A model generated the notes under the pieces. The model saw only the letters and a program-made list of their open reading frames with translations, ran no database searches and was not told the DNA's origin. Source: a phage. From it: 44,418 nt of DNA. The translations under genes and the position numbers were made by a program. Shown piece after piece: positions 3,898-44,350 of this stretch. The stretch lies in the sequence record PX502252.1. One strand, written 5' to 3'. Numbering within the stretch: position 1 is the stretch's first letter; every line of letters begins with the position of its first letter.

Positions 3898-6408
3898 ATG
3901 AAAACTATTGATTGGAAGAAGGAAGCAGAAGGGCGAATCCTAGTGATGGATGCGGAAGCTAAAGGTCTGCTTGATGCTATCCGCTATGGTCATCGTGAAG
4001 ATGTACACATCATTTGCTGCATGGACTTGCTCACCACTGAGGAGTTCCTCTTCTTCGACCCATATGAGATGCGTGACCCTGAAGCAAGGGAACACCTGAA
4101 AGAGTGGGAAGGACATCAAGATGGAACCTTAGTTGACGGTGTTAACTTCCTGAAGCACTGTGAAGCTATTGTGTCGCAGAACTTCCTAGGATATGACGGT
4201 CTTCTCTTTGAGAAAGCATTCCCTGATATCTGGAAAGGCTTTAATTATACCGAGAAGCGCGGCAAGGGCAGACTCCGTGCCGACCTGTGCCCTATCCGTG
4301 TTGTCGACACGCTGGTGATGAGTCGCCTGTTAAACCCCGATAGACGCCTTCCTCCGCAAGCATATGCCAAAGGTATGGGTAACGTCGCCCCTCACTCAAT
4401 TGAGGCGCACGGCATCCGTATAGGTCGCTATAAACCGGAGAACGAGGACTGGTCTAAACTAACTGACCACATGGTTCACCGTGTACGTGAGGACGTGGCG
4501 ATTGGTCGTGACTTGTTCCTCTGGCTCTTTAACGGGGAATGGATGGAGCACAAACGCCGTGGCGTGAACAAACGTACTGGCCTAGGGATTGAGACAGCCT
4601 TCCACATGGAGTCCATTGTGGCGCTGGAGATGAGCCGTCAGGCAGAGCGTGGATTCCGTCTGGATATTGACAAAGCACTAGCGCGATGCGAAGAACTGGA
4701 CGCTAAGATTGATGAGACAGTCGCAGCGTTCCGTCCGCACATGCCTATGCGTATCAAGTCTAAACCTTTTAAACCGGAAGAAAAGAATGAAGTATGCCAA
4801 CGCGCAAATGAGTATGGAGCTAGCAACAATATACCTACTGTCCTGGACCCCTCACACTTTCTTCATGCCGAGAGACGAGGAGATCGCAAGACAGTATGGA
4901 GTGTCACTACTAAGTCTGGTGATTGGTCGGCTAGTGTCAAGAAAGACTTTCCTCACCTTAGAGGAAACCGTAATGACACGCCAAGCATCAAGTGGATTGG
5001 CGCTTACTCGCCTGTTACTTTCGAAGAGATTCCCTTGGGTAACAGGGATGCAGTTAAGCAAGTGCTCTATGATTATGGATGGAAAGGTGTTGAATTTAAC
5101 GATACCGAGCAAGCGCATCTCGATGAGCACGGAGTGTTACCCAAACCTTGGAGTGGTAAGATAAATGAAAAGTCCCTTACTTTATGGCAAGAAAGAGCCG
5201 CACGTGAAGGTAAAACAGTCCCTGATTGGTGCTTGGGTATCGCTGCATGGTACATACTCGTATCCCGTCGTGGTCAGATACTCAACCGGGGTGACGTTGA
5301 AGCCTTCAACGAGAAGGGAACGTGGCCCTCGCAGGCTGGTGTACGAAAGTGTCGCGGCCTTGTACCTGTAGCATTCAACAAGGAGTTAGGAATCAATGCG
5401 CAGCAATACTACGAGAGGTACGGATGCTGGCCTACGTCAGACAAGGATGACGGAGAGTGGCGTGTGCCAGGCAATGCTGTTACTATTGGCACTAATACGT
5501 TCCGTATGCGTCATCGTAACATTGTTAACATTCCTTCCCGTGGGTTGTATCCTTTACGTGATTTATTCATAGCTAGCAAGGGCAAAATGATACTTGGGTG
5601 TGATGGAGCAGGTCTTGAGCTACGCATCTTAGCCCATTTTATGGGTGATCCTGAGTATATTGATATAGTCTTGAATGGTGATATTCACTCGCACAACCAA
5701 GCAAAGGCTGGATTGCCCTTACGTGACACTGCGAAAACATTTATCTACGCTTTTCTCTACGGATCTGGCATACCAAATCTTGCCGCTGTATGTGGCATGA
5801 CTGAAGCACAGATGAAAGAATGTGTTGCTCGCTTTGAAGTAGAGTTACCTCATTTAGCTAAACTTAAGGAAGGGGTGGAATCCGCTGCTTCAACATTTGG
5901 ATATATGCACGCTGTAGATGGACGCTGGGGACGTGTACGCGTTAGTAATGGTGAGATTAAGATTCACACTTGTCTTAACGTACTGCTACAGATGACTGGC
6001 TCCCTCACTATGAAGTACTCAAAAGTGAAGGCTCTCGCTACTATGCGAAAAGAAGGTGTTGCCCTTGATGAGAATGGAAACCCTGCTATGCTTGTAGATT
6101 ATCATGATGAATGGCAGATGGAAGTACCTGAAGATGAAGTCTTAGAGATTCGCTACTCTATTCCTTCTTCCGAATGGAAAGAGGAAGAGAAACGTCAATA
6201 TCGTGATAGCGAAGGGCGCATGTGGTCTGCACCCAAGATTGTGGAAGGCAATCCTAAAGATGACGAAGAGGTAACAGTACGTCGCAGGTATCATCGTGCT
6301 GGTGAAATCTTAGCTGAATCTATTACGTGGGCTGGAGAATATCTCAAGCTACGTATCCGAATGGATGGCGAATATATGCTTGGATATTCATGGGCTGAAA
6401 CACACTGA
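3898..6408 (+). CDS. DNA polymerase, family A (T7 gp5-like)
   Basis: Exo I motif ILVMDAEAKGL; motif A GCDGAGLELRILAHF; motif B RDTAKTFIYAFLYGSG; motif C YHDEWQ. Start placed at ATG 3898 (AGAGG 7 nt upstream); in-frame ATG 3871 lacks SD. Confidence 0.93.
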   Translation: MKTIDWKKEAEGRILVMDAEAKGLLDAIRYGHREDVHIICCMDLLTTEEFLFFDPYEMRDPEAREHLKEWEGHQDGTLVDGVNFLKHCEAIVSQNFLGYDGLLFEKAFPDIWKGFNYTEKRGKGRLRADLCPIRVVDTLVMSRLLNPDRRLPPQAYAKGMGNVAPHSIEAHGIRIGRYKPENEDWSKLTDHMVHRVREDVAIGRDLFLWLFNGEWMEHKRRGVNKRTGLGIETAFHMESIVALEMSRQAERGFRLDIDKALARCEELDAKIDETVAAFRPHMPMRIKSKPFKPEEKNEVCQRANEYGASNNIPTVLDPSHFLHAERRGDRKTVWSVTTKSGDWSASVKKDFPHLRGNRNDTPSIKWIGAYSPVTFEEIPLGNRDAVKQVLYDYGWKGVEFNDTEQAHLDEHGVLPKPWSGKINEKSLTLWQERAAREGKTVPDWCLGIAAWYILVSRRGQILNRGDVEAFNEKGTWPSQAGVRKCRGLVPVAFNKELGINAQQYYERYGCWPTSDKDDGEWRVPGNAVTIGTNTFRMRHRNIVNIPSRGLYPLRDLFIASKGKMILGCDGAGLELRILAHFMGDPEYIDIVLNGDIHSHNQAKAGLPLRDTAKTFIYAFLYGSGIPNLAAVCGMTEAQMKECVARFEVELPHLAKLKEGVESAASTFGYMHAVDGRWGRVRVSNGEIKIHTCLNVLLQMTGSLTMKYSKVKALATMRKEGVALDENGNPAMLVDYHDEWQMEVPEDEVLEIRYSIPSSEWKEEEKRQYRDSEGRMWSAPKIVEGNPKDDEEVTVRRRYHRAGEILAESITWAGEYLKLRIRMDGEYMLGYSWAETH

Positions 6409-6417
6409 GTTATACTA

Positions 6418-6445
6418 AAGGTCACTTACGAGTGGCCTTTATGAA
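6418..6445 (+). terminator. Hairpin downstream of DNA polymerase (AAGGTCACT-TACG-AGTGGCCTT) with weak T-tract
   Basis: 9-bp stem with tetraloop; 3' arm AGTGGCCT resembles RNAP-downstream terminator. Confidence 0.35.
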
Positions 6446-6476
6446 TAACTTACTCCCACCTATTTTGTATAACAGG

Positions 6477-6499
6477 ATTTACTGGACACTATAGAAGGA
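6477..6499 (+). promoter_or_regulatory. SP6-type phage promoter (ATTTACTGGACACTATAGAAGGA)
   Basis: Consensus match, intergenic. Confidence 0.75.
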
Positions 6500-6562
6500 A
6501 AGCCTAGGTAATCTAGTTTATAAGGTAGTATAGGTAATTAAGTAAATATAGGAGGTATAAAT

Positions 6563-6940
6563 ATGTCTATGGTAACTACTCTGGTATTCGTAGCTCAATA
6601 CTTTCGTGGCTTGGCTAACAAGTTCAAGCAGAAAGCCATCAAGCATATTGAGAAACGTATTGCTGCAATTGAAGATGAGCAGGTTCAAGTAGAGGAGCAG
6701 CGTAGCTCTCAGATGGTTGACTTGCACAATCGACTGTATAAAGACCGTGATGAAATGCGTCACCGTCATGCGAAGGAAGTCGAAGACATGCTTAACCGCC
6801 ATGCGGAAGAACAAGCTAAACTGGAAACAACCTTCCATGAGAATAAGCGTAGCATTGCTCTAGTACATCAAGCTGCATCTGACAGTCTGAAGAAAGAGAT
6901 TGTTATGCTGGAAATTGAACTGGACAACCTAACTAAGTAA
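6563..6940 (+). CDS. Hypothetical protein (125 aa), charged helical/coiled-coil-like
   Basis: ATG with GGAGG upstream; K/E/R-rich. Confidence 0.65.
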   Translation: MSMVTTLVFVAQYFRGLANKFKQKAIKHIEKRIAAIEDEQVQVEEQRSSQMVDLHNRLYKDRDEMRHRHAKEVEDMLNRHAEEQAKLETTFHENKRSIALVHQAASDSLKKEIVMLEIELDNLTK

Positions 6941-14377: not shown

Positions 14378-15925
14378 ATGCAAGACACCGACCTTGAGTA
14401 CGGTGGTAAGCGGTCGAAGATACCTAAGCTTTGGGAGAAGCTATCTACTAAGCGTAACCCTTTCATGGACAGGGCAAAGCACTATGCGAGGTTGACTTTG
14501 CCTTATCTCATGAATGAGGAGGGAGACAACAATACCTCTCAGAATGGGTGGCAAGGTGTAGGTGCTCAGGCTACTAACCACTTAGCTAACAAGTTAGCGC
14601 AAGTTCTCTTCCCGGCTCAACGCTCTTTCTTCCGAGTAGACTTGACAGCAAAAGGGGAGAAGATATTAAACAACAGAGGTCTTAAGAAGACCAAATTAGC
14701 TACACTGTTTGCTCAAGTAGAGACTGCTGCTATGAAGCAATTAGAGCAACGGCAGTTCCGCCCAGCGGTGGTGGAGTGCTTCAAGCATTTGATTGTTGCT
14801 GGCAACTGTATGTTGTACAAGCCAAGCAAGGGTGCAATCAGTGCTATACCTATGCACCACTATGTAGTTAATAGAGATGCCAATGGTGAACTGCTGGATA
14901 TTATCTTACTGCAAGAGAAGGCTCTCAAGACATTCGACCCTGCAACTCGCATGGCTATTGAAGTAGGCATGAAAGGTAAGAAGTGTAAAGATAGTGATAA
15001 TGTAAAACTTTATACACATGCCAAGTATGAAGGTGAAGGTTTTTGGGAACTAAAGCAATCTGCTGATGATATTCCTGTAGGTAAGGTGAGTAAAATCAAA
15101 TCAGAAAAGCTACCTTTCATTCCACTGACTTGGAAGCGAAGCTATGGTGAGGATTGGGGTCGGCCTCTTGCAGAGGATTATTCTGGAGACTTATTCGTAA
15201 TCCAATTCCTATCCGAAGCAGTTGCCCGTGGCGCTGCTTTGATGGCCGACATTAAATACCTGATTCGTCCAGGTGCTCAGACAGATGTAGACCACTTTGT
15301 TAACTCAGGTACAGGTGAAGTAATTACTGGCGTGGAAGAAGACATCCATATTGTACAGTTAGGTAAGTATGCAGATCTAACACCCATAAGTGCTGTACTA
15401 GAGGTTTATACCCGCCGCATAGGTGTAGTCTTCATGATGGAGACAATGACACGTAGGGATGCAGAACGTGTAACTGCTGTAGAGATACAGAGAGATGCTC
15501 TTGAGATTGAGCAGAACATGGGTGGTGTGTATTCCCTCTTTGCAACTACCATGCAGACGCCCGTGGCTATGTGGGGTTTGCTTGATGCAGGTGACTCTTT
15601 CACTAGTGACCTAGTAGACCCTGTTATCATCACAGGCATTGAAGCGTTAGGTCGCATGGCAGAGTTGGATAAGCTGGCTAACTTTGCTCAGTATATGGCA
15701 TTACCTATGAGTTGGCCTGAGCCGGTACAGGCAGCAGTAAACTGGCCGGATTATATGGATTGGGTTCGGGGTCAGATCTCTGCTGAACTTCCATTCTTAA
15801 AGTCAGAAGAGCAGATGAAGCAAGAACAAGCACAGATGGCACAAGCACAGCAAGAGCAGATGCTTAATGAAGGAGTAGCTAAAGCTGTGCCGGGTGTCAT
15901 TCAACAAGAACTTAAGGAGGCGTAA
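14378..15925 (+). CDS. Portal (head-tail connector) protein, T7 gp8-like
   Basis: 515 aa; position before scaffold and capsid; N-terminal region resembles T7 gp8; acidic/Q-rich C-terminus. Confidence 0.88.
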   Translation: MQDTDLEYGGKRSKIPKLWEKLSTKRNPFMDRAKHYARLTLPYLMNEEGDNNTSQNGWQGVGAQATNHLANKLAQVLFPAQRSFFRVDLTAKGEKILNNRGLKKTKLATLFAQVETAAMKQLEQRQFRPAVVECFKHLIVAGNCMLYKPSKGAISAIPMHHYVVNRDANGELLDIILLQEKALKTFDPATRMAIEVGMKGKKCKDSDNVKLYTHAKYEGEGFWELKQSADDIPVGKVSKIKSEKLPFIPLTWKRSYGEDWGRPLAEDYSGDLFVIQFLSEAVARGAALMADIKYLIRPGAQTDVDHFVNSGTGEVITGVEEDIHIVQLGKYADLTPISAVLEVYTRRIGVVFMMETMTRRDAERVTAVEIQRDALEIEQNMGGVYSLFATTMQTPVAMWGLLDAGDSFTSDLVDPVIITGIEALGRMAELDKLANFAQYMALPMSWPEPVQAAVNWPDYMDWVRGQISAELPFLKSEEQMKQEQAQMAQAQQEQMLNEGVAKAVPGVIQQELKEA

Positions 15926-28000: not shown

Positions 28001-28852
28001 GAGAAAATTGTAGCTCGCTCTATCAATAAGAGACTAAAGCAACATTTGATGGGTGAGCGACAGCTACCCAAAGCAGACCTTGAAGAAGTTGGCCTAAGTG
28101 AAGATGTCATGAAGAGACTTAAACGTCACTTTGATGATAACCCAATGTACGCTGATTACAACGGTGAAAAAGTTCGTATGATGAACTTTGATGCTATGGA
28201 GCCAGATCTGAGAGAAACAGTAGGTGTTGCTGTGCGAAGAATGTCAGGCCGTCTTATTCAACGTAACTTCATTGGTGATGAAGGTATCTGGATGAACAAA
28301 TGGTGGGGTAAAGCATTAACTCAGTTTAAGTCATTCTCTATCGTCTCTATTGAGAAACAGTTAATCCATGATTTACGAGGTGATAAGATTCAGGCTGCAC
28401 AGATACTTGCATGGTCTACTTTACTAGGTTATGCATCTTATTCACTACAGATGCAGCTGCAAGCGATTGGTAGGGAAGATAGAGACAAGTTCTTGAGGGA
28501 TAAGTTTGACACACAGAACATCGCTATGGGTGTCTTTAATAAACTCCCACAAGTTGCAGGCTTCGGTCTTGCTGGTGATGCTTTGGCAACCTTTGGCCTA
28601 ATGCCAGACTCCATGATGCAAGCACCGGGACGTATGGGCTTCCGTCAGCAAGGATTTGGTGATTTGGTAGCAGGTGCTGGTGTAATCAGTGATACAGTTA
28701 ATTTGTCACAAGCACTGGTTAAGTATGCCAGTGGGGATGATGATGTCTCTACTAGGCAGTTGGTGGACAAGGTGCGTCGCCTTGTTCCTTTGGCAAATAC
28801 TATTGGTGTAGGTCAGATGACTAAAGCCAGTGTAGACTTATTGGAGGATTGA
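25049..28852 (+). CDS. Internal virion (core/ejection) protein, T7 gp16-like
   Basis: 1267 aa; size and position. Confidence 0.85.
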   Translation: MVDSINQNWVAVTQRKLPPTFSQVAEAERRVEDQRAKDKVFQTAIESEWALYGGQRAYERHTTEFTEQEGYEVPESTKDELSKLYGYEIAQDIVKNVKSPEELQFRMSNAAADKDRADILARNGFTGFSAQIAAGILDPVGWAASLVAAPVAGAVKVGRLGRIIKTAALSGAENAALEAVLAQGDYQRGVDDVLAAAGFGMIMGGTIGAATRERIASAGSRTAAERAEVVFDDLDTVVKGADEFDSSAARAVREAMEYDAYMAARNYEPLRAREVDADMAILSHTDNLKANASVRMSASEKGLLKKQIRQLEAEAATLKGKKIDAVAEAAAAKGAPKSAADRLDLDVQKKALARRFDEPLADLQARLDELNAKLSRANNVGKAKEELKRFSSLSREDQIKELGLDAPMRKVEMTRAVRDAVAAIRAERKKTPTEIHAGQVAEEAIKQKADDSIGAKRVEGSEIAGEQFDLSKNMEELMDDLAREAYQSDVRPINLKGLGSVSSVILNSENPVFRGLGLRLLENAQGGAYQGKTASILSDVYGNLIRHAERNRYNDGFSQFIKDNNLRAVDYLNPATTRDFNNQIYTAIVRGIPEDTPRGVKLAAEGIADKLKKALEIRKQAGEHGFEDVQSAKDYIPVIYDGIKITEAVNKLGSSEAVIHLLSKGYQTGKYKLGKKAADALAKVQYIRASDSTLSSRVAFDRVVSQQQQVQLIEDLKKAGVPDRIIDNFIEGTELAEMAESVSNRAKASMGINTQAEYGGLKVQDLLNTNVGELTENYGKEAAGGAALAAMGFPTRQSVLNAIDAAERAGRNMAGSNAKAIKQLRSEAEMLRDAVKLIYGNTIDADPNSGIVRGTRRVREITGLLRLGQMGFAQIPELARAISKMGLGTVLKSVPATKFLRSRAARKGGTAQGELLEPELREMEELLGYIGEDNWLTGWNVRHDEFGETADNLGKLSAIIDNGLAMGSRINTILSGFKAVQGGSEKIVARSINKRLKQHLMGERQLPKADLEEVGLSEDVMKRLKRHFDDNPMYADYNGEKVRMMNFDAMEPDLRETVGVAVRRMSGRLIQRNFIGDEGIWMNKWWGKALTQFKSFSIVSIEKQLIHDLRGDKIQAAQILAWSTLLGYASYSLQMQLQAIGREDRDKFLRDKFDTQNIAMGVFNKLPQVAGFGLAGDALATFGLMPDSMMQAPGRMGFRQQGFGDLVAGAGVISDTVNLSQALVKYASGDDDVSTRQLVDKVRRLVPLANTIGVGQMTKASVDLLED

Positions 28853-29811
28853 TGAGTTACACATTCACTGAACATACAGCGAATGGCACTCAAACTACTT
28901 TCCCCTTCCGGTTCGCTGGGAGGGACAAGGGGTACTTGAGGGCTTCTGATATTTTAGTTGAAGTAAGAAATGATGGTGTATGGAACACGGTAAGCGGTTG
29001 GACACTTACAGGCACTAACCAGATAACCTTTAATGTACCACCAGCGGCAAATACAAAACTTCGCATCAGGCGCGTTGTAGAGAAAGAAGAGCCTTATGCA
29101 GAGTTTGACCGTGGTGTGACCTTAGATATGAAATCTCTCAATAACTCCTTTATACACCTTTTGGAAGTATCTCAGGAGCTACTGGATGGTTTCTATCCAG
29201 ATGGTTACTTTGTAAAGCAAGATACATCTTGGGGTGGACATAAGATTACTGATTTGGCTGATGGCACAAATCCGGGAGATGCAGTAAATAAAGGACAGCT
29301 TGATGCCATCGACAAGAAGCATACAGATTGGAACGCCAAACAGGACATTGAGATTGCTGGCCTTAAAGCAGGTATGACTTCTGGTATTGCGCACAGAACT
29401 GTCCCTTGGTATACGATCGCACAAGGAGGTGAGATTTCCGTAAAGCCTCCTTATGAATTTCAAGATGCACTAGTTTTCCTTAATGGGGTATTACAACACC
29501 AAATCGTAGGCGCATACTCTATAAGCAACAACACTATTACTTTCGCAGAGCCACTTGTGGCTGGCACAGAGGTGTACGTGTTGGTGGGGAGTCGTGTGGC
29601 TACATCTGAACCTAATATTCAGTTAGAGCTGAACTTTGACTTAGTAGAAGGTCAACAAGTAGTAAAGATTGGCTCTGCATTTAAGTATATTGAGGTTTAT
29701 CTTGATGGACTATTACAACCTAAACTTGCTTATCAGGTAGATGGTGACATTGTTACTTTCTCAGAGGGAGTACCAGAATGTCGGATGACTGCTAAGATTA
29801 TCACAGCATAA
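28852..29811 (+). CDS. Tail fibre adaptor protein (T7 gp17 N-terminal domain-like)
   Basis: N-terminus FTEHTANGTQTTFPFRF...TKLRIRR resembles tail-attachment domain of T7 gp17; 320 aa. Confidence 0.7.
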   Translation: MSYTFTEHTANGTQTTFPFRFAGRDKGYLRASDILVEVRNDGVWNTVSGWTLTGTNQITFNVPPAANTKLRIRRVVEKEEPYAEFDRGVTLDMKSLNNSFIHLLEVSQELLDGFYPDGYFVKQDTSWGGHKITDLADGTNPGDAVNKGQLDAIDKKHTDWNAKQDIEIAGLKAGMTSGIAHRTVPWYTIAQGGEISVKPPYEFQDALVFLNGVLQHQIVGAYSISNNTITFAEPLVAGTEVYVLVGSRVATSEPNIQLELNFDLVEGQQVVKIGSAFKYIEVYLDGLLQPKLAYQVDGDIVTFSEGVPECRMTAKIITA

Positions 29812-34545: not shown

Positions 34546-34568
34546 ATTTACTGGACACTATAGAAGAG
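34546..34568 (+). promoter_or_regulatory. SP6-type phage promoter (ATTTACTGGACACTATAGAAGAG) upstream of receptor-binding protein genes
   Basis: Full consensus match; ORF track's 34536 start runs through it, so true CDS start is downstream. Confidence 0.8.
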
Positions 34569-34646
34569 ATAAATAGTGCCGTTCATTTGAGCGGCCTATT
34601 ACTAGCCAATCTTCATAGGGAGGGTTGGAAAGTAATAGGAGACAAT

Positions 34647-35714
34647 ATGGCTAAACTTACTAAAGTCTTCCAAGGCAGGGATGGTAAAGGTCAAGAGGAC
34701 TTTTATACCGGAGGTGGATGGAGCGGAGCCGATGGTGAGTCCGGTAGTATTTATAAAACTGTAGGCTCTCCACAAGAGAGTGCATCTAGGTGGAGATTTT
34801 CATTAAAAGAAAATGAACTAGTAGAAGAGCCTACCATCTGGTTAAATAAACGAACCAAAGTGTCTAGAAGTGATGGCATTAAAAGGTGGGATGCTGGCAA
34901 TTTATATTGCGGCCTAGATAAGATAGAAGGAGATGCATATGCTGCATCTTTAACTGGTGCAGCAAGACACCTAGGTGGGGAAGGGGATGTGATAGGTGTG
35001 CACGGAAGAGGTTGTGCCTATCATGGAAAAGCAAAAGTATGGGGTGGGTGGTTTTACGCTGCATCCAGAGTAGATAGCGAAGTTGTTGCAGGAGAAGCAC
35101 CTATTGATATGATAGGTGTTGAAATAAACTTAAACCATAAAAGAGAGGACATCTCTTGGACACCAGCAGAGGGTAAAGGCTTATACCGAGGCCTTGTAGT
35201 CACTACGGCAGATGGTGGAAAAAGATGCCATATAGGTATAGATGTTGGAGCACAAACCAGTAATAAATCAGAACCTTGGTATGTAGGGCTACGCATAAGA
35301 AAGGACAGCATAGTTCCTTTCAATGATGAAAGAGAAGGTAATGCGGCATCTGCAATATTAATAGAAGGCTCTACTCTACAATCCAAGGCGTATGGTGGTT
35401 TATCATTTAAGAATGGAACCCTAGCATATGGTATAGATTTTACAGGTATAGCTTTGATTGACAACCAAGCTGCATTGGTAATGAAAGATGACCATAGGAT
35501 CCGTTGGGGTTCAAGGGTGTCATCTAGATACATCTCAGGCAACAGTGTAACTGGTCAAGTAAATTTCAATAACTATGCAATTGCAGTAAATGGCAATAAA
35601 GTTATTGGAGAGCAACAACAAGCCATAAGTAATGCATCACAAGGTACAGAGGTTGATACTATAAATAATATCTTAGAAGCCCTAAGATCTCACGGACTAA
35701 TTAAGAGAGGTTAA
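34647..35714 (+). CDS. Putative tail fibre / receptor-binding protein 1 (355 aa), function unassigned
   Basis: TAGGAGA SD before ATG 34647; Gly-rich; located in the tailspike module; no confident domain call. Confidence 0.55.
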   Translation: MAKLTKVFQGRDGKGQEDFYTGGGWSGADGESGSIYKTVGSPQESASRWRFSLKENELVEEPTIWLNKRTKVSRSDGIKRWDAGNLYCGLDKIEGDAYAASLTGAARHLGGEGDVIGVHGRGCAYHGKAKVWGGWFYAASRVDSEVVAGEAPIDMIGVEINLNHKREDISWTPAEGKGLYRGLVVTTADGGKRCHIGIDVGAQTSNKSEPWYVGLRIRKDSIVPFNDEREGNAASAILIEGSTLQSKAYGGLSFKNGTLAYGIDFTGIALIDNQAALVMKDDHRIRWGSRVSSRYISGNSVTGQVNFNNYAIAVNGNKVIGEQQQAISNASQGTEVDTINNILEALRSHGLIKRG

Positions 35715-35718
35715 TATT

Positions 35719-35862
35719 ATGAAGGAAGAAGTTATTAAAAATATCTTAAAGTTTATGAGTCGAGTTGAATTACATGGGTATGAAGTTCCTGCTTTTGTTA
35801 TTTGTATGGACTCGCTTGAAGCTATGCTTCTATCAAGCAATGAAGACAAAGCGGATGTTTAA
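35719..35862 (+). CDS. Small protein (47 aa) between the two receptor-binding genes
   Basis: ATG 4 nt after upstream stop, GAGAGG upstream; followed by hairpin terminator; below ORF-track cutoff. Confidence 0.35.
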   Translation: MKEEVIKNILKFMSRVELHGYEVPAFVICMDSLEAMLLSSNEDKADV

Positions 35863-35868
35863 ACAGTG

Positions 35869-35890
35869 GCAGTGCGTAAGCACTGCTTTT
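35869..35890 (+). terminator. Hairpin GCAGTGC-GTAA-GCACTGC followed by TTTT
   Basis: Perfect 7-bp stem, GNRA-like tetraloop, T-tract. Confidence 0.55.
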
Positions 35891-35946
35891 CACGCAACTT
35901 TTCTTAAAGGTTATCATGGTGGTAGCCTTTCAGAAAAGGAGGGTAC

Positions 35947-37605
35947 ATGCTGCAACGATTAAGTGCTTCCTTAGTGAAGTACAAGAGCAAGCTCATAGGA
36001 GCTACCTATAGGTTGCTTGGTGATAAACTTTTAGAGCTAAATAGTGTATCAGATTTTGGTGCAATACCTAATCTTGAAACAGATAGTACTAACTCCATTC
36101 AAGCTGCAATTGATGCGACCCCGTCTGGTGGTACTCTAGGCTTCTATGGTGGGCCTTATAGATTTGGTACTGTTACAGTGGATAAACCAATTACACTAGT
36201 TGGAGATGCAGATTTGCAGTTTGAGTGCATTCGTATCAAGACAAGTAAGTTTCGTAGTTTCTTGACAGGAACACTAACTGCTGCAAGATACGACAGTGCA
36301 TGTCGTGCATTTCAAATCTTAGCCTATGAAGATGGGGAAGATTATGAGGACATCAAGGTACATGGTGCACGTTTCGAGGGTTTCTTCTATAACACAGACT
36401 TCCGAGGCCGTTCTTACGATGCGTCAGAAAGTGATCCCGCTAACAGAGTGGTTCGGGATACCTCCATTATGGGTTGTACTTCAGTTCAACCTAAAGATGG
36501 TAAAGACAGAGGGCACTTTCAACACGTAGGTGTTACCAATGCCAAGTGCATAGGTAACTCAACGTATGGTGGTAAGAATGCTACTTCTTATAACTTCATT
36601 AATGGTAATGGCTCTTTGGTGGTTATTGGTAATTATGACCATGACAATGAATACGGCTCCTTAGAGATTGAGAATAACAAGATAAGCTATGGTGTGGTTA
36701 CTGGTAATATCTTCCATAAACAACTATGGATAGATGATACTAGCAATATTAATGTAATAGGTAACACCTGTACAGATAGGATTTACATTACTGCACAATC
36801 TAACAACTCTGAGAACGTATCAGTAGTGGGGAATAATGTACCACGCATCTACGTCAGTAAGTTTGGTCAAAGCCCAACAGGGCGTCACCGTAACTTGACT
36901 ATACGTGGTAATCATATCACTGGCAAGGATGTTCCTAACTGTATCTTCTTAGATGATTCTGTTGATTCCGCTTCTATTGAAGGTAATGATTGTTATGGTG
37001 TGTCTGGTGTTAAAGGCATAGCCATTACTCGTCATGCAGATGCTAACCATACAGTGCGTCATAATAACTTACATGGCACTAACTTACTCTTTAGTGGTTC
37101 GGGCGGAAAAGTTTATAGTTATGACAACTTTGATGTTGGAGTTGATGAATCCCCTGTGGCAGACAGAACTGACGCAGTGCACATTGACAACCTTCTTCGT
37201 GTAAATGATGAGTACCTTGATTTGCCAGGAAAGTACCTATACAAATCTAAGTATACAAGAGACATTACACAAGGTGGCTCAACCACTATTGAGTTACCTG
37301 TAACCACAAGTGGTTCTTTGGCTTTTCGTGGTATTAGTTTATGGGTTCTTATCCGTAACACTTCTACGGGGAACTTGTCTTCTTATCGTGTAGATGGAAG
37401 ACATGCAGTAAGTGGTTCTTCTGTGACTGTTAGCTTTGGAGAGAAGTATGGGGTATTAGGAGTGAATACTGGTGATGTTACTGTTAGTAATGATGCCTCT
37501 ACGACTACTCTTATTCGTATCAAGGTAAGCAATGAGCATGTAAGTCAGACAATGCAGGTTACAGTTGTACCAGAGGTAACAAGCAGATTAGGGACTGAAG
37601 AGTAA
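35947..37605 (+). CDS. Tailspike with pectate-lyase-like right-handed beta-helix (polysaccharide depolymerase)
   Basis: AAAGGAGGG SD; N-terminal VSDFGAIPN...TDSTNSIQAAIDATPSGGTL...TLVGD typical of beta-helix depolymerase start; repeated GN-containing rungs (VIGNYD, VIGNTC, VVGNNV, IRGNHI, IEGNDC). Confidence 0.8.
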   Translation: MLQRLSASLVKYKSKLIGATYRLLGDKLLELNSVSDFGAIPNLETDSTNSIQAAIDATPSGGTLGFYGGPYRFGTVTVDKPITLVGDADLQFECIRIKTSKFRSFLTGTLTAARYDSACRAFQILAYEDGEDYEDIKVHGARFEGFFYNTDFRGRSYDASESDPANRVVRDTSIMGCTSVQPKDGKDRGHFQHVGVTNAKCIGNSTYGGKNATSYNFINGNGSLVVIGNYDHDNEYGSLEIENNKISYGVVTGNIFHKQLWIDDTSNINVIGNTCTDRIYITAQSNNSENVSVVGNNVPRIYVSKFGQSPTGRHRNLTIRGNHITGKDVPNCIFLDDSVDSASIEGNDCYGVSGVKGIAITRHADANHTVRHNNLHGTNLLFSGSGGKVYSYDNFDVGVDESPVADRTDAVHIDNLLRVNDEYLDLPGKYLYKSKYTRDITQGGSTTIELPVTTSGSLAFRGISLWVLIRNTSTGNLSSYRVDGRHAVSGSSVTVSFGEKYGVLGVNTGDVTVSNDASTTTLIRIKVSNEHVSQTMQVTVVPEVTSRLGTEE

Positions 37606-37754
37606 TGCCATTAATCAAATCAGTTAAGCAAAGTGCTGTACGCCAGAACACAGAAGAACTTATTCAATCAGGACGTGACCCTAAGCAGGCTTATGCCATT
37701 GCCAAGGATGTACAACGTCGTGCAATGAAGAAACCTTCTGCATCTTCTGCGTAA
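37605..37754 (+). CDS. Small basic protein (49 aa), translationally coupled to tailspike
   Basis: ATG overlaps tailspike TAA (TAATG); MPLIKSVKQSAVRQNTEELIQSGRDPKQAYAIAKDVQRRAMKKPSASSA. Confidence 0.4.
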   Translation: MPLIKSVKQSAVRQNTEELIQSGRDPKQAYAIAKDVQRRAMKKPSASSA

Positions 37755-37893
37755 GCAGGTTAATATCTTAGTTTACACAAGGACAGACCTATGATAGCTC
37801 ACAGCACACCCCTGAGTGCCGCTCTGGATTCTATGAATTGTTCCCTGACTATCTAGGTTTGCTCTTAGTGTATTCCAAAGGAGGTCACATGTA

Positions 37894-38159: not shown

Positions 38160-38900
38160 ATCTTAGTGTTGTACAAGGAATAACCAAAGTCAAAATTTTG
38201 ATGTAGGCGTGTGTGAGGTGTCTCGCCCTCGCCCTCGCCGGGATGTCCCCATAGGGTGGCCTGAGGGAATCCGTCTCCGACGGGCAGGGCTGATGCACTC
38301 CTTGTACTAGCTTAGTAGTACACAAGGGATGACCGTACTAGTTAGCTGGTACAGCCTAGTCTTTGCTCATGTACTAGCAAGGTGGAACGCCGGAGAACGC
38401 CTAGGACGGCCTAGGGATGGCTTAGTGGTGGACAAGGTGATTGCCTTAGTGAAGCCTCTTAGTGCATTCCTGAGGCTATTCAGGGCCATTCCTGAGCGTT
38501 TGACAGGGTGGGCGTGGGTGGGCTATCTGTTCGTTTCGTCGCTGGCGCTCCTCACTTCGTTTCGCCTAGCGCTCCACTCACAAGCCTGACGTGTACCTTA
38601 GTCACTACCTTAGGTTGTTCCTTGATGGATAGCTTAGGTTAACCTTAGTGGATTGCCTTAGTTAAAGCCTTAGTGCTTCACTTAGTATCAGCTTAGTAGT
38701 GTACCTTAGTCAGTCTTAGTGTTAGACCTTAGTGACTACATAGCTACGCTATAAGATGCAAATAGGTCGCGGTCGGTAGACCGCTAATAAGAAGTAATAG
38801 TAATAAGATGCAGTAGGAGGAACACCAGAAACCTAGTCAGCCTAGCCTATCCTAGCTCTGTATCTATTGCGTTTCCTTAGTCTCACATGTTAGACAACCT
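38160..38900. repeat. Non-coding, repeat-dense genome-terminus region (GC-rich block then array of about 11 CTTAGT/CCTTAGT units); probable site of terminal repeat/concatemer junction
   Basis: CTCGCC x3, TACTAG x3, ATTCCTGAG x2, TTCGTTTCG x2, then CTTAGT repeats every 10-14 bp (38590-38750); no SD-led ORFs; analogous to T7 terminal-repeat heptamer arrays. Confidence 0.6.
38880..38895. promoter_or_regulatory. Palindrome variant GTCTCACATGTTAGAC (site 7, one mismatch)
   Basis: 15/16 match to the recurrent palindrome. Confidence 0.5.
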
Positions 38901-41722: not shown

Positions 41723-44350
41723 ATGCAAGATTTACACGCTATCCAGCTTCAGCTTGAAGAGGAAATGTTTAACGGCGGTATTCGTCGCTTTGAAGCAGAC
41801 CAACAACGCCAGATTGCATCAGGTAATGAATCCGATACGGCATGGAATCGTCGCCTATTGTCGGAACTTATCGCACCTATGGCTGAAGGTATTCAGGCTT
41901 ATAAGGAAACCTACGAAGGCAAGAAAGGACGCGCACCGCGTGCACTGGCTTTCATTAACTGCGTAGAGAACGAAGTGGCAGCATATATCACGATGAAGAT
42001 CGTAATGGATATGCTTAACACTGATGTAACCTTGCAAGCCATAGCAATGAATGTAGCTGATCGCATCGAAGACCAAGTACGCTTCAGCAAGCTGGAAGGT
42101 CACGCCGCCAAATACTTTGAGAAAGTAAAGAAGTCGCTTAAGGCAAGTAAGACTAAATCATATCGCCATGCGCACAACGTAGCGGTGGTGGCTGAGAAGT
42201 CAGTAGCTGACCGTGACTCTGATTTCTCTCGCTGGGAAGCATGGCCTAAAGATACCTTGCTACAAATCGGTATGACCTTGCTAGAAATACTGGAGAATAG
42301 TGTATTCTTCAATGGTCATCCTGTTTTCCTCCGCACCTTGCGCACTAATGGTGGTAAGCATGGTGTTTACTACTTACAGACCAGTGAACATGTAGGGAAA
42401 TGGATTACAGCATTCAAAGAACATGTAGCGCAACTAAGCCCAGCGTATGCACCTTGCGTTATACCTCCACGTCCGTGGGTTTCTCCTTTTAATGGTGGAT
42501 TTCACACTGAGAAGGTGGCAAGCCGCATCCGTCTAGTTAAAGGAAACCGCGAGCACGTCCGCAAGTTAACCAAAAAGCAGATGCCAGCGGTTTACAAGGC
42601 TGTTAACGCTTTGCAGGAGACTAAATGGCAGGTTAATAAAGAAGTCTTGCAGGTAGTAGAAGACGTTATCCGTCTCGACCTTGGCTATGGTGTACCTTCA
42701 TTTAAACCACTCATCGACCGCGAGAATAAGCCAGCTAACCCAGTGCCGTTAGAATTCCAGCACTTGCGAGGCCGTGAGTTGAAAGAAATGTTAACGCCGG
42801 AACAATGGCAAGCCTTCATTAACTGGAAAGGTGAATGTACCAAGCTGTATACCGCAGAGACTAAGCGCGGCAGCAAGTCGGCGGCAACCGTTCGCATGGT
42901 AGGGCAGGCCCGTAAATACAGCCAGTTTGACGCTATTTATTTTGTATATGCACTGGATAGCCGTTCACGCGTTTATGCGCAATCTAGCACGCTCTCACCG
43001 CAATCAAACGACTTAGGCAAGGCGCTCCTACGGTTTACCGAAGGGCAGACTATAAACAGCGCTGAGGCGCTTAAGTGGTTTTTGGTGAACGGGGCGAATA
43101 ACTGGGGTTGGGATAAGAAAACCTTTGACGTGCGCACCGCTAACGTGTTGGATGGTGAATTCCAAGACATGTGCCGCGATATTGCAGCCGACCCGCTGAC
43201 CTTTACTCAATGGGTAAATGCTGATTCTCCTTACGGTTTCCTTGCATGGTGCTTTGAATACGCGCGTTATCTAGATGCGCTGGATGAAGGCACGCAAGAC
43301 CAATTCATGACGCACCTACCAGTACACCAAGATGGTAGCTGTTCCGGCATCCAGCACTACAGCGCTATGCTACGCGACGAAGTCGGTGCTAAGGCGGTAA
43401 ACCTTAAACCATCCAACGAGCCGCAAGACATTTATGGCGCGGTTGCTCAGGTTGTTATCCAGAAGAATTACGCCTACATGAATGCAGATGATGCGGAAAC
43501 TTTCACATCTGGAAGTGTAACCCTTACAGGTGCAGAACTGCGCAGCATGGCTAACGCGTGGGATATGATTGGGATCACTCGCGGCCTGACCAAGAAACCC
43601 GTTATGACCCTGCCATACGGCTCCACACGCTTAACCTGCCGTGAATCGGTGATTGATTATATCGTTGATTTGGAAGAAAAAGAGGCACAACGAGCTATCG
43701 CCGAAGGGCGGACGGCGAATCCTGTGCACCCTTTTGATAATGACCGTAAAGACTACCTGACACCGGGCGCGGCATATAACTATATGACTGCTCTCATCTG
43801 GCCTTCCATCTCTGAGGTTGTGAAAGCTCCGATAGTTGCCATGAAAATGATTCGCCAGCTTGCACGTTTCGCAGCTAAGAGGAACGAAGGATTAGAATAC
43901 CCCTTACCGACTGGCTTCATCTTGCAACAAAAGATAATGGCAACCGATATGCTTCGCGTATCCACTTGCTTGATGGGTGAAATCAAGATGAGTCTCCAGA
44001 TTGAAACAGATGTAGTTGATGAAACGGCAATGATGGGTGCGGCTGCTCCTAACTTCGTGCACGGTCATGATGCTAGCCACCTGATTCTGACTGTATGTGA
44101 CCTAGTGGATAAAGGTATTACATCCATTGCAGTCATCCATGATTCTTTCGGCACTCATGCAGGACGTACCGCAGACCTGCGGGATAGCTTAAGGGCAGAA
44201 ATGGTTAAGATGTATCAAGACCATAATGCCTTGCAAAACCTGCTGGATGTGCACGAAGAACGTTGGTTAGTAGATACCGGAATCCAAGTACCAGAGCAAG
44301 GAGAGTTTGACCTTAACGAAATCTTAGTATCTGACTATTGCTTCGCATAA
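41723..44350 (+). CDS. Single-subunit DNA-directed RNA polymerase, SP6-type
   Basis: 875 aa; N-terminus [32 protein letters not shown] and long stretches match SP6 RNAP as I recall it; motifs [14 protein letters not shown] and VHDSFGTH; cognate promoters throughout genome. Confidence 0.97.

What the first reader, a model, noticed from the sequence alone, without database searches (positions are those of the whole stretch)
34647..37754. Two-component receptor-binding module with small coupled ORFs
A 355-aa Gly-rich protein of unknown fold and a 552-aa beta-helix depolymerase follow their own promoter. Each is followed by a tiny ORF (47 and 49 aa; the second overlaps TAATG) that could be a chaperone or assembly factor, and a perfect hairpin terminator sits between the two large genes. 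The short N-terminal anchors imply attachment through the separate adaptor protein at 28852, as in K1-5-like phages, so this module is the likely host-range determinant.
Basis: partly seen in the sequence, partly recalled or inferred. Interest (0 to 1): 0.6.

Follow-up and report, generated by a model that had tools for sequence, protein, structure and literature searches.

The report
Dual tailspike module of a Vectrevirus
This is the familiar two-tailspike host-recognition cassette of a K1E/K1-5-like coliphage, but its first tailspike belongs to an uncharacterised family that nearly always travels with a ~50-residue partner gene, which is probably a dedicated assembly helper.

Summary
An exact phage-RNAP promoter (34546-34568) drives ORF-A (355 aa), ORF-a (47 aa), a hairpin, ORF-B (552 aa) and ORF-b (49 aa, TAATG overlap).

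The window is a circularly permuted Vectrevirus genome. The module is the known K1-5/K1E/SP6 arrangement. ORF-A starts MAKLTKV and ORF-B starts MLQRLSASLVK, matching the published docking peptides MAKLTKP and MIQRLGSSLVK. The adaptor at 28852-29811 is 63% identical to K1E gp37.

New details:
- **ORF-A:** its core has no Pfam, PHROG or PDB match. In other phages the same core is fused to P22, T7, G7C and P2-type anchors. Its fold is unresolved: AlphaFold2 failed twice.
- **ORF-a:** it is a real gene. HMM-detectable homologues lie 4-33 nt downstream of ORF-A-family genes in podo-, sipho- and myoviruses and in prophages, so the pair moves as one cassette. A cognate assembly partner is the best guess.
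- **ORF-b:** it is a backbone gene (SP6 gp51 family). It is interrupted in K1E and deleted in a relative, so it is not a tailspike-specific chaperone.
- **ORF-B:** it is 88% identical to the head of gp66 in the N4-like phage St11Ph5.
- **Hairpin:** it covaries, but must be leaky because ORF-B has no promoter of its own. A second conserved hairpin was missed.

Verdict: a new member of a known kind, of moderate interest.

The parts
28852..29811 (+). Adaptor protein (K1E/K1-5 gp37 homologue, 319 aa). It lies outside the finding but is the docking platform for both tailspikes.
   Evidence: PF03906 Phage_T7_tail matches residues 3-152, E = 7e-13. phrog_2710 matches at E = 2e-143. It is 63% identical to K1E gp37 over 317 aa.
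34546..34568 (+). Phage-RNAP (SP6/K1E-type) promoter that drives the module.
   Evidence: Exact match to ATTTACTGGACACTATAGAAGAG. There are 8 copies in the window against 0 expected. It is conserved in T205P5 and L009.
34569..34646 (+). Conserved 5' leader with two predicted stem-loops and the RBS (AGGAG at 34637-34641).
   Evidence: It is nearly invariant in three Vectrevirus-type loci. RNAfold gives -33.1 kcal/mol.
34647..35714 (+). ORF-A, the slot-1 receptor-binding protein (355 aa). It has a 6-7 residue docking peptide (MAKLTKV), an uncharacterised conserved core, and a short gp26-like C-terminal helix module.
   Evidence: - No Pfam, PHROG or NCBIfam match.
- Family members carry many different N-terminal anchors.
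- The full HMMER search finds 134 representatives at E <= 1e-30.
- The family profile's C-terminal module matches the C-terminus of the P22 tail needle gp26.
- Homology to other Vectreviruses ends after codon 6.
35719..35862 (+). ORF-a, a 47-aa acidic partner protein (pI 4.6). Family consensus: MDKQxIQNIMQFMxRVxLxGxEVPAFxxxMxALQAE followed by an acidic tail.
   Evidence: - At least 260 clusters, all unnamed or 'hypothetical protein', with no Pfam domain.
- Invariant F12, R15, V16, L18, G20, E22, M30 and L33.
- It lies directly downstream of ORF-A-family genes in at least 11 independent contexts and in 11 of 13 IMG/VR loci.
35868..35890 (+). Hairpin H1 (8-bp stem, GUAA loop) plus a short U-run. 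It marks the first base where homology with other Vectreviruses resumes.
   Evidence: - Fold of the surrounding 46 nt: -14.6 kcal/mol.
- Covariation: 4 of 8 pairs compensatory, 0 of 500 shuffles reach the score.
- The LL11 record annotates it as a 'terminator'.
- The terminator scan does not call it.
35898..35938 (+). Hairpin H2 (7 + 11 bp with single-nucleotide bulges), ending at the ORF-B RBS (GAGGG at 35939-35943).
   Evidence: RNAfold predicts it in window, T205P5, L009, K1E and LL11, and a slightly shorter version in SP6. It is absent in K44PH129C1. The stem sequence is invariant and only loop bases vary.
35947..37605 (+). ORF-B, the slot-2 tailspike (552 aa). It has a docking peptide (MLQRLSASLVK...) and a probable right-handed beta-helix head.
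   Evidence: - phrog_20231 'tail protein', E = 1.5e-282.
- PF12708 matches residues 33-91 at 23 bits, below the 27-bit cutoff.
- [IV]xGN motifs recur every 23-26 residues between 270 and 370.
- 88% identical to St11Ph5 gp66 residues 400-945.
- 99% identical to T205P5.
37605..37754 (+). ORF-b, a 49-aa basic protein (pI 10.4) of the SP6 gp51 family. It is a backbone gene and is translationally overlapped with ORF-B (TAATG).
   Evidence: - phrog_2423, E = 1.3e-23.
- Found in 116 phage records regardless of tailspike type.
- Stop codon in the K1E reference.
- Only a 3' remnant in L009.
- dN/dS against St11Ph5 is 0.26, from just 14 changes.
37755..37878 (+). Conserved non-coding stretch after ORF-b. 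It was co-transferred to St11Ph5.
   Evidence: It is 95% identical to St11Ph5, whereas dS of the adjacent ORF-B body is 0.39. No Rfam family matches, and the fold z-score is -1.1.

Best explanation
The region is the late host-recognition operon of a Vectrevirus (a K1E/K1-5-like podovirus).

**Transcription.** One phage-RNAP promoter transcribes all four genes.

**Attachment (inferred from homology).** ORF-A and ORF-B are two different trimeric receptor-binding proteins. They dock non-covalently, through their 7- and 11-residue N-terminal peptides, on two sites of the gp37-type adaptor encoded at 28852. The virion therefore carries two specificities.

**ORF-A plus ORF-a.** ORF-A is a minimal version of a widespread but uncharacterised tailspike head: docking peptide, conserved core, and a gp26-like C-terminal trimerisation helix. 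ORF-A and ORF-a form one mobile cassette. It is exchanged between the docking-peptide codons and hairpin H1.

**Role of ORF-a (inferred).** The most likely role is a cognate partner of the ORF-A head. It could be a small folding or trimerisation helper, or a subunit retained at the distal tip. I put this at about 0.5.

**ORF-B.** It is probably a beta-helix polysaccharide-degrading tailspike. The same head is used by the N4-like phage St11Ph5.

**ORF-b.** It is a dispensable backbone gene that merely sits next to slot 2.

**Hairpins (inferred).** H1 and H2 form a conserved linker that serves as the recombination joint between slots. They probably act in partial termination, RNA processing or RNA stability.
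For: - **Identity of the phage and module:**
- **Docking peptides versus literature:**
- **Cassette boundaries:** homology to T205P5 and L009 stops after codon 6 of ORF-A and resumes at H1.
- **ORF-A is full-length for its family:** it covers HMM positions 94-457 of 459.
- **Interchangeable anchors:** the family core is fused to PF09008, PF03906, PF18668 and PF12571 anchors and to both Vectrevirus slots.
- **Conserved polar residues:** K68 and E159 are invariant across 39 sequences. H119, N161 and D189 are at least 90% conserved.
- **ORF-a linkage, from the RBP side:** 11 of 14 ORF-A-family genes examined have an HMM-positive ORF-a immediately downstream.
- **ORF-a linkage, from the ORF-a side:** 4 of 4 look-ups and 11 of 13 IMG/VR loci have an ORF-A-family gene ending 12-33 nt upstream.
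- **Cognate pairing:** L009 has family members in both slots, each with its own diverged ORF-a.
- **ORF-b as a backbone gene:**
- **ORF-B shared with St11Ph5:**
- **H1 covariation:**
Against: - There is no experimental data on virion content, enzymatic activity or ORF-a function.
- ORF-A's docking peptide has V instead of P at position 7.
- ORF-a resembles no known chaperone. Pfam, NCBIfam, PADLOC and PDB searches gave nothing relevant.
- Three ORF-A-family genes (L025, L026 and the second RBP of L019) are followed by small ORFs with no detectable similarity to ORF-a.
- ORF-a-like genes also follow unrelated fibres (L045, AVP1).
- Tight adjacency alone would make the two genes co-transfer even without any functional link.
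- The beta-helix assignment of ORF-B rests on weak profile hits, and no solved relative was found by sequence.
Confidence: 0.8

Rival explanations
1. ORF-a is not an assembly factor. It is an unrelated small accessory ('moron'-type) gene, for example a host-takeover, exclusion or regulatory peptide. It co-transfers with the tailspike only because it lies inside the exchanged segment.
For: - It has no similarity to any chaperone family.
- In P22-like prophages it occupies the position downstream of the tailspike gene where accessory genes usually sit (my own knowledge; locus layout).
- Further small genes of unknown function follow it in many loci.
- ORF-a-like genes occur after unrelated fibres.
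Against: - The linkage survives transfer between virulent podo-, sipho- and myoviruses and temperate phages with different lifestyles and hosts, including Aeromonas.
- The gap to the RBP stop is always 4-33 nt.
- L009 keeps two diverged copies, one per RBP. That is hard to explain for a generic accessory function.
Confidence: 0.2
2. ORF-a is a permanent structural subunit. It would be a small helical cap bound to the gp26-like C-terminal coiled coil at the distal tip of the ORF-A spike, rather than a transient chaperone.
For: - Aeromonas phage AsC4_1 has a GDSL-type RBP that shares only the C-terminal ~110 residues with the ORF-A family, yet it still has an ORF-a-like gene downstream.
- The family profile's C-terminal module matches the trimeric C-terminus of P22 gp26.
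- ORF-a's sequence reads as a two-helix hairpin with an acidic tail (structural reading is an inference).
Against: - AS2 and pYD21-A share the short C-terminal motif but have no ORF-a.
- No multimer modelling or proteomic data are available.
Confidence: 0.2
3. ORF-b (49 aa) is the dedicated chaperone or assembly factor of the slot-2 tailspike.
For: - It always lies immediately after the slot-2 gene, and here it is translationally overlapped with it.
- It was carried intact into St11Ph5 together with the tailspike head. dN/dS is 0.26, based on only 14 changes.
Against: - The same protein, 80-100% identical, follows endosialidases, other tailspike heads and the SP6 tail fibre gene alike.
- It carries an in-frame stop in the K1E reference genome.
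- It is deleted to a 24-nt remnant in L009.
- It is basic and has no tailspike-specific variation.
Confidence: 0.08
4. ORF-A is a decayed, non-functional slot-1 remnant like K1E gp46 (111 aa). Under this reading the phage is effectively mono-specific through ORF-B.
For: - ORF-A is short for a tailspike.
- K1E shows that slot 1 can hold a truncated protein.
- The C-terminal motif is about 17 residues shorter than the family consensus.
Against: - ORF-A spans the whole conserved core, HMM positions 94-457 of 459, and keeps all invariant residues.
- The short C-terminal variant recurs intact in L009, AS2 and pYD21-A.
- A 99% identical copy exists in a sibling contig.
- The partner gene is intact.
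Confidence: 0.05

Closest known systems
K1-5 / K1E / SP6 dual-tailspike system (adaptor gp37 plus gp46 and gp47; Leiman et al. 2007, as summarised in PMC6872550)
   Same: - The genus backbone and the promoter.
- The adaptor, 63% identical to K1E gp37.
- Docking peptides MAKLTK(V/P) and M(L/I)QRL..SLVK.
- The ~85-nt two-hairpin linker.
- The trailing gp51-like ORF.

   Different: - Neither head domain is the K5 lyase, the endosialidase or the P22-like endorhamnosidase.
- Slot 1 holds a 355-aa protein of an uncharacterised family plus an extra 47-aa gene. K1-5, K1E, SP6, LL11 and T205P5 all lack that gene.
Gamaleyavirus St11Ph5 gp66 (the branched G7C-type adhesin of an N4-like phage)
   Same: The head domain is 88% identical at the protein level and about 90% at the nucleotide level. 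The shared segment includes ORF-b and 124 nt of downstream non-coding DNA.
   Different: In St11Ph5 the head is fused to a ~400-residue gp66 anchor and branching domain. Here it carries only an 11-residue docking peptide. The host of St11Ph5 is UPEC up11 (O5ab). Its receptor is unresolved, because resistant mutants kept their LPS profile (PMC5764931, PMC6393563).
Tail-fibre assembly chaperones encoded downstream of fibre genes (lambda/Mu/P2 Tfa-type, T4 gp38 and gp57A) and the C-terminal intramolecular chaperone of endosialidases
   Same: A small gene sits immediately 3' of the receptor-binding gene and is exchanged together with it. Copies are cognate to each RBP. The comparison with these chaperones rests on my general knowledge of them.
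   Different: ORF-a is only 44-65 residues long. It shows no sequence similarity to any of these families. It is associated with a tailspike-type head rather than a fibre tip. Chaperone activity is untested.
C-terminal domain of the P22 tail needle gp26 (PDB 2POH, 3C9I, 4LIN)
   Same: The motif ...NG.KVVG.RQTGW...TGTA...F... at the C-terminus of the ORF-A family matches gp26 residues ~159-232, E about 2e-5.
   Different: The match was made with the family profile, not with ORF-A alone. ORF-A carries a shortened variant (GEQQQAISNASQGTEVDTINNILEALRSHGLI). The rest of the protein is unrelated to gp26.

Membership tests
K1-5/K1E/SP6-type adaptor-mediated dual tailspike system | A separate ~300-aa adaptor with a T7 gp17-like N-terminal domain and no receptor-binding head. 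| tested here: met
   The 28852-29811 product is 319 aa. PF03906 matches at E = 7e-13. It is 63% identical to K1E gp37 along its full length.
K1-5/K1E/SP6-type adaptor-mediated dual tailspike system | The slot-1 protein begins with the heptapeptide MAKLTKP. | tested here: met
   ORF-A begins MAKLTKV, 6 of 7 identical. DNA homology with relatives ends exactly after codon 6.
K1-5/K1E/SP6-type adaptor-mediated dual tailspike system | The slot-2 protein begins with the undecapeptide MIQRLGSSLVK. | tested here: met
   ORF-B begins MLQRLSASLVK, 8 of 11 identical. About 35 N-terminal residues are conserved with T205P5, and more loosely with L009 and K1E gp47.
K1-5/K1E/SP6-type adaptor-mediated dual tailspike system | Both proteins are physically present on the virion, bound to the adaptor. 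| not testable with these tools
   This needs virion proteomics or cryo-EM.
Right-handed beta-helix (pectate-lyase-like) polysaccharide depolymerase: ORF-B | A significant match to a beta-helix or pectate-lyase profile, or to a solved beta-helix tailspike. | tested here: inconclusive
   - PF12708 scores 23 bits against a 27-bit cutoff, and only over residues 33-91.
- Among 6 homologues, 2 hit PF12708 (best E = 3.5e-5) and 1 hits PF13229 (E = 0.011).
- The family profile finds no PDB relative.
- Only the N-terminal 60 residues match the Kp7 depolymerase 7Y5S, E = 0.003.
- The [IV]xGN periodicity of 23-26 residues is consistent with a beta-helix.
Right-handed beta-helix (pectate-lyase-like) polysaccharide depolymerase: ORF-A | A predicted or solved beta-helix fold. 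| tested here: inconclusive
   - Two AlphaFold2 runs gave pLDDT 53.8 and 60.8.
- There is no Pfam or PDB match for the core.
- Some distant family members carry the PF12708 start motif just before the core.
- hhalign against the ORF-B family gives probability 2.6%.
Polysaccharide depolymerase (either protein) | Enzymatic cleavage or modification of capsule or O-antigen. | not testable with these tools
   This needs spot or halo assays and product analysis.
Tail-fibre assembly chaperone families (Tfa-type, gp57A and similar): ORF-a | Sequence membership in a known chaperone family. | tested here: not met
   There is no relevant hit in Pfam, NCBIfam, PADLOC or PDB. The only match is a weak one to phrog_18977, of unknown function.
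Tail-fibre assembly chaperone families (Tfa-type, gp57A and similar): ORF-a | The gene lies immediately downstream of its cognate receptor-binding gene and is co-inherited with it. | tested here: met
   
SP6 gp51 / phrog_2423 backbone protein: ORF-b | A sequence match, and a position after the last tailspike gene near the right genome end. | tested here: met
   phrog_2423 matches at E = 1.3e-23. ORF-b is 89% identical to SP6 gp51, and 116 records carry it in the same position.
Intrinsic (hairpin plus U-run) terminator: H1 | A G+C-rich hairpin followed by a U-run of at least 5, and transcripts that end there. | tested here: inconclusive
   The stem is present and covaries. The U-run is only 3-4 residues and is not conserved in L009, and the scan does not call it. 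ORF-B has no promoter of its own, so read-through is required. Transcript ends cannot be tested here.

The most novel reading that the evidence does not exclude
ORF-a would define a new class of minimal (~50-residue) cognate partner proteins for receptor-binding proteins. It would be either a dedicated trimerisation chaperone or a retained distal cap, and the Pfam-less ORF-A tailspike family would need it. The functional, transferable host-range unit would then be a two-gene cassette rather than a single tailspike gene. In that case, engineering or recombinant production of these tailspikes would fail without the small gene.
Probability: 0.45. Interest if true: 0.6.

Novelty: new member of a known kind. 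Interest (0 to 1): 0.38.

Why it matters
The overall architecture is textbook for K1-5-like phages, so it teaches nothing new about how two tailspikes are mounted. Two smaller points have practical value.

- **A two-gene host-range unit.** A widespread tailspike head family has no characterised member, yet it is swapped between P22-, T7-, N4-, P2-, lambda- and rV5-type phages. It almost always carries a tiny partner gene. If that gene is needed for folding or forms part of the spike, phage host-range engineering and recombinant depolymerase production must move both genes together.
- **Recent exchange between unrelated podovirus families.** The ORF-B segment is shared with St11Ph5. It shows a recent exchange of a complete tailspike head between Autographiviridae and Schitoviridae. 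The backbone-derived ORF-b points to the direction of transfer.

Tried and rejected
- **AlphaFold2 of ORF-A.** I ran it with 29-sequence and 39-sequence alignments. Both models were poor (pLDDT 53.8 and 60.8).
- **Profile searches of the ORF-A core.** PDB and Pfam found only the gp26-like C-terminal motif and the variable anchors.
- **hhalign of the ORF-A family against the ORF-B family.** Probability 2.6%.
- **ORF-B family profile against PDB.** No hit.
- **ORF-a and ORF-b against Pfam, NCBIfam, PADLOC and PDB.** Nothing.
- **Rfam and tRNA scans of the whole window.** Nothing.
- **Fold of the conserved non-coding stretch after ORF-b.** Not significant, z = -1.1.
- **Family size from the word-indexed protein search.** It suggested that the ORF-A family is tiny (29-41 clusters). 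The exhaustive HMMER search showed this to be an artefact of the prefilter: 134 representatives at E <= 1e-30.
- **Literature searches for a described small tailspike chaperone.** Nothing relevant in the held library.
- **Link between cysteines in ORF-a helix 2 and the short C-terminal variant of ORF-A.** Dropped after P0033 broke the pattern.
- **A suspected repeated CTTAGTGTACACAAGG motif near the genome end.** It did not hold up.

Full report
**What is there.**
The + strand between 34546 and 37878 carries these elements in order:
- an exact copy of the phage-RNAP promoter ATTTACTGGACACTATAGAAGAG (34546-34568; one of 8 in the window, 0 expected by chance);
- a conserved leader;
- ORF-A (34647-35714, 355 aa, 13.8% Gly);
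- ORF-a (35719-35862, 47 aa, pI 4.6);
- an 84-nt linker with two hairpins;
- ORF-B (35947-37605, 552 aa);
- ORF-b (37605-37754, 49 aa, pI 10.4, TAATG overlap);
- a conserved non-coding tail.

**Whose genome.**
Megablast places the window in Vectrevirus (Autographiviridae, Molineuxvirinae; the K1E/K1-5 group). Most relatives match only 13-14% of the 3.3-kb query, at 93-96% identity. Those matches cover the promoter and leader, the inter-gene linker with the first ~100 nt of ORF-B, and ORF-b, while the bodies of the two large genes are replaced. The window is circularly permuted: the RNA polymerase gene lies at 41723-44350.

**How the two proteins attach.**
Leiman et al. 2007, as summarised in PMC6872550, report that K1-5 gp46 and gp47 bind the adaptor gp37 through the N-terminal peptides MAKLTKP and MIQRLGSSLVK. 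ORF-A starts MAKLTKV and ORF-B starts MLQRLSASLVK. The 28852-29811 product has the T7-tail N-terminal domain and is 63% identical to K1E gp37. Homology with T205P5 and L009 ends exactly after codon 6 of ORF-A and resumes at the first hairpin. The adaptor-mediated reading is therefore supported by homology. Physical attachment remains inferred.

**ORF-A.**
- It has no Pfam, PHROG or NCBIfam match, and nothing above 32% identity among 50,697 phage records. A 99% identical copy exists on a 45-kb assembled contig.
- Word-indexed searches found only 29-41 clusters. The exhaustive HMMER search found 134 representatives at E <= 1e-30.
- The ~330-residue core is fused to many anchors:
  - P22 head-binding domains;
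  - T7 tail domains;
  - TSP1/gp66 N-terminal domains;
  - P2-type tail-collar domains;
  - both the slot-1 and the slot-2 peptide of Vectreviruses.
- ORF-A covers HMM positions 94-457 of 459, so it is a minimal but complete member and not a remnant.
- K68 and E159 are invariant across 39 sequences. H119, N161 and D189 are at least 90% conserved. This is compatible with an active site but does not prove one.
- The family's C-terminal module matches the C-terminus of the P22 tail needle gp26, E about 2e-5. ORF-A has a shortened variant that is also seen in L009, Aeromonas phage AS2 and Vibrio phage pYD21-A.

**ORF-a.**
This is the most informative result.
- Homologues have the consensus MDKQxIQNIMQFMxRVxLxGxEVPAFxxxMxALQAE followed by an acidic tail. 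F12, R15, V16, L18, G20, E22, M30 and L33 are invariant.
- They lie 4-33 nt after ORF-A-family genes in all of the following:
  - Kagunavirus LM02P1, a siphovirus;
  - Phapecoctavirus nieznany, a myovirus;
  - a T7-like contig;
  - two types of P22-like E. coli prophage;
  - a G7C-like contig;
  - an Aeromonas P2-like prophage;
  - a contig where the RBP gene follows a lambda gpJ-like gene;
  - both slots of the Vectrevirus-like contig L009.
- Counted from the RBP side, 11 of 14 family genes have an HMM-positive ORF-a. The other three are followed by unrelated small ORFs of similar size.
- Counted from the ORF-a side, 4 of 4 look-ups and 11 of 13 IMG/VR loci have a family RBP directly upstream.
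- The ORF-a family has at least 260 clusters. All are unnamed or called hypothetical protein, and none has a Pfam domain. PDB, NCBIfam and PADLOC searches also found nothing.
- L009 keeps one diverged copy per RBP, which argues for cognate pairing.
- ORF-a-like genes also follow a GDSL-type RBP that shares only the C-terminal ~110 residues (AsC4_1), and they follow unrelated fibres (AVP1, L045). The association may therefore be with the distal end of RBPs more generally.
- I conclude that ORF-a is a real gene and that ORF-A plus ORF-a is one mobile cassette. A chaperone or cap function is the best inference (about 0.5) but is untested.

**ORF-B.**
- It matches phrog_20231 'tail protein' at E = 1.5e-282.
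- It is 99% identical to T205P5 and 88% identical to St11Ph5 gp66 residues 400-945.
- More distant relatives are tail proteins of Aeromonas and Arthrobacter phages. One of them is annotated as a pectin-lyase-like hydrolase.
- Evidence for a beta-helix is weak but consistent:
  - PF12708 at 23 bits, below the 27-bit cutoff;
  - hits to PF12708 or Beta_helix in 3 of 6 homologues;
  - [IV]xGN motifs every 23-26 residues.
- No solved relative was found by sequence, apart from the N-terminal 60 residues matching the Klebsiella phage Kp7 depolymerase 7Y5S.
- St11Ph5 was isolated on UPEC up11 (O5ab). Resistant mutants kept their LPS profile, so the receptor of this head is open.

**ORF-b.**
- It belongs to the SP6 gp51 / phrog_2423 family. 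It occurs in 116 phage records behind endosialidases and other tailspike heads, and behind the gene annotated as tail fiber protein in SP6.
- It has an in-frame stop in the K1E reference. In L009 only its last ~24 nt survive.
- It is therefore a dispensable backbone gene, not a tailspike-specific factor.
- Among G7C-like phages it appears only in St11Ph5 and its near-identical relative ShWW44. There the homology runs from window 36042 to 37878 and includes 124 nt of Vectrevirus non-coding DNA. This points to transfer from a Vectrevirus into the N4-like phage.
- dN/dS is 0.12 for the ORF-B body and 0.26 for ORF-b.

**The linker.**
- H1 (35868-35887) covaries across five distinct versions: 95% of cells pair, 4 of 8 pairs are compensatory, and 0 of 500 shuffles reach the score. 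The LL11 record annotates it as a terminator.
- Its U-run is only 3-4 residues and is not conserved in L009. The scan does not call it, and ORF-B has no promoter of its own. At most it can be a partial terminator or an RNA-stability element.
It is a longer stem ending at the ORF-B RBS, with invariant stem sequence in the Vectrevirus-type loci and SP6. It may be a processing or translation-control element. That is speculation.

**Verdict.**
The module is a new member of the known K1-5-type dual tailspike system. The adaptor reading and the host-range reading are supported by homology. The coupling of the 47-aa ORF is strongly supported by synteny, but its function is open. The chaperone idea for the 49-aa ORF is not supported. 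Interest is moderate: the ORF-A/ORF-a cassette is an undescribed, testable feature of practical relevance for tailspike engineering.

Noticed in passing
window 35898-35938: A second conserved stem-loop (7 + 11 bp with bulges) ends at the ORF-B ribosome-binding site. Its stem sequence is invariant in window, T205P5, L009, K1E, LL11 and SP6, and only loop bases vary. It could be an RNase III site or a translational control element.
   Followed up: partly
window 36042-37878; L004 (St11Ph5) 4992-6828: A 1.84-kb segment is about 90% identical between this Vectrevirus and the N4-like Gamaleyavirus St11Ph5. It comprises the tailspike head, ORF-b and 124 nt of non-coding DNA. The backbone-derived ORF-b suggests transfer from a Vectrevirus into St11Ph5.
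   Followed up: yes
window 37755-37878: The non-coding stretch after ORF-b is 95% identical to St11Ph5, although synonymous divergence of the adjacent tailspike gene is 0.39. It has no Rfam match and no significant fold, so the cause of the conservation is unknown.
   Followed up: partly
L023 (K1E reference) ~14635-14784; L009 ~5480-5505: The ORF-b homologue has an in-frame TAA in the K1E reference genome. In the Vectrevirus-like contig L009 it is reduced to a ~24-nt 3' remnant. The gene is therefore dispensable.
   Followed up: yes
L009 2701-5455: A Vectrevirus-like 44.6-kb contig has ORF-A-family proteins in both tailspike slots (357 aa and 431 aa). Each is followed by its own diverged ORF-a paralogue (44 aa and 49 aa).
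   Followed up: yes
L010 4731-4976; L011 4596-4838; L028 3822-4299; L019 3661-3933; L003 5149-5421; L027 4158-4430; L007 1705-1977: Two further small gene families often follow ORF-a. One is 80-90 aa with '..LYIRVELPR...CY.H.K....IDC'. The other is 74-94 aa with 'FTAVGV.ILEVRGDGWSAGFYLKP'. Neither is present in the window, and neither matches NCBIfam or PADLOC.
   Followed up: partly
L045 240-3120; L005 1895-3809; L006 1373-3653: ORF-a-like small proteins (core motif R.xLxGxEVPA[FY]) also follow receptor-binding genes outside the ORF-A family. These are an 895-aa fibre, a GDSL esterase-type RBP that shares only the C-terminal ~110 residues, and an Aeromonas jumbo-phage tailspike.
   Followed up: partly
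window 34569-34646: The leader between the promoter and ORF-A folds into two stem-loops (-33 kcal/mol). It is nearly invariant in T205P5 and L009.
   Followed up: no
window 38200-38300 and 41723-44350: The window is a circularly permuted whole genome. A G+C-rich stretch (ctcgccctcgccctcgcc) that resembles a terminal repeat lies just downstream of the module. The RNA polymerase gene is at the far right.
   Followed up: no
The word-indexed protein search returned only 29-41 clusters for the ORF-A family. The exhaustive HMMER search found 134 representatives at E <= 1e-30. The apparent rarity was a prefilter artefact.
   Followed up: yes
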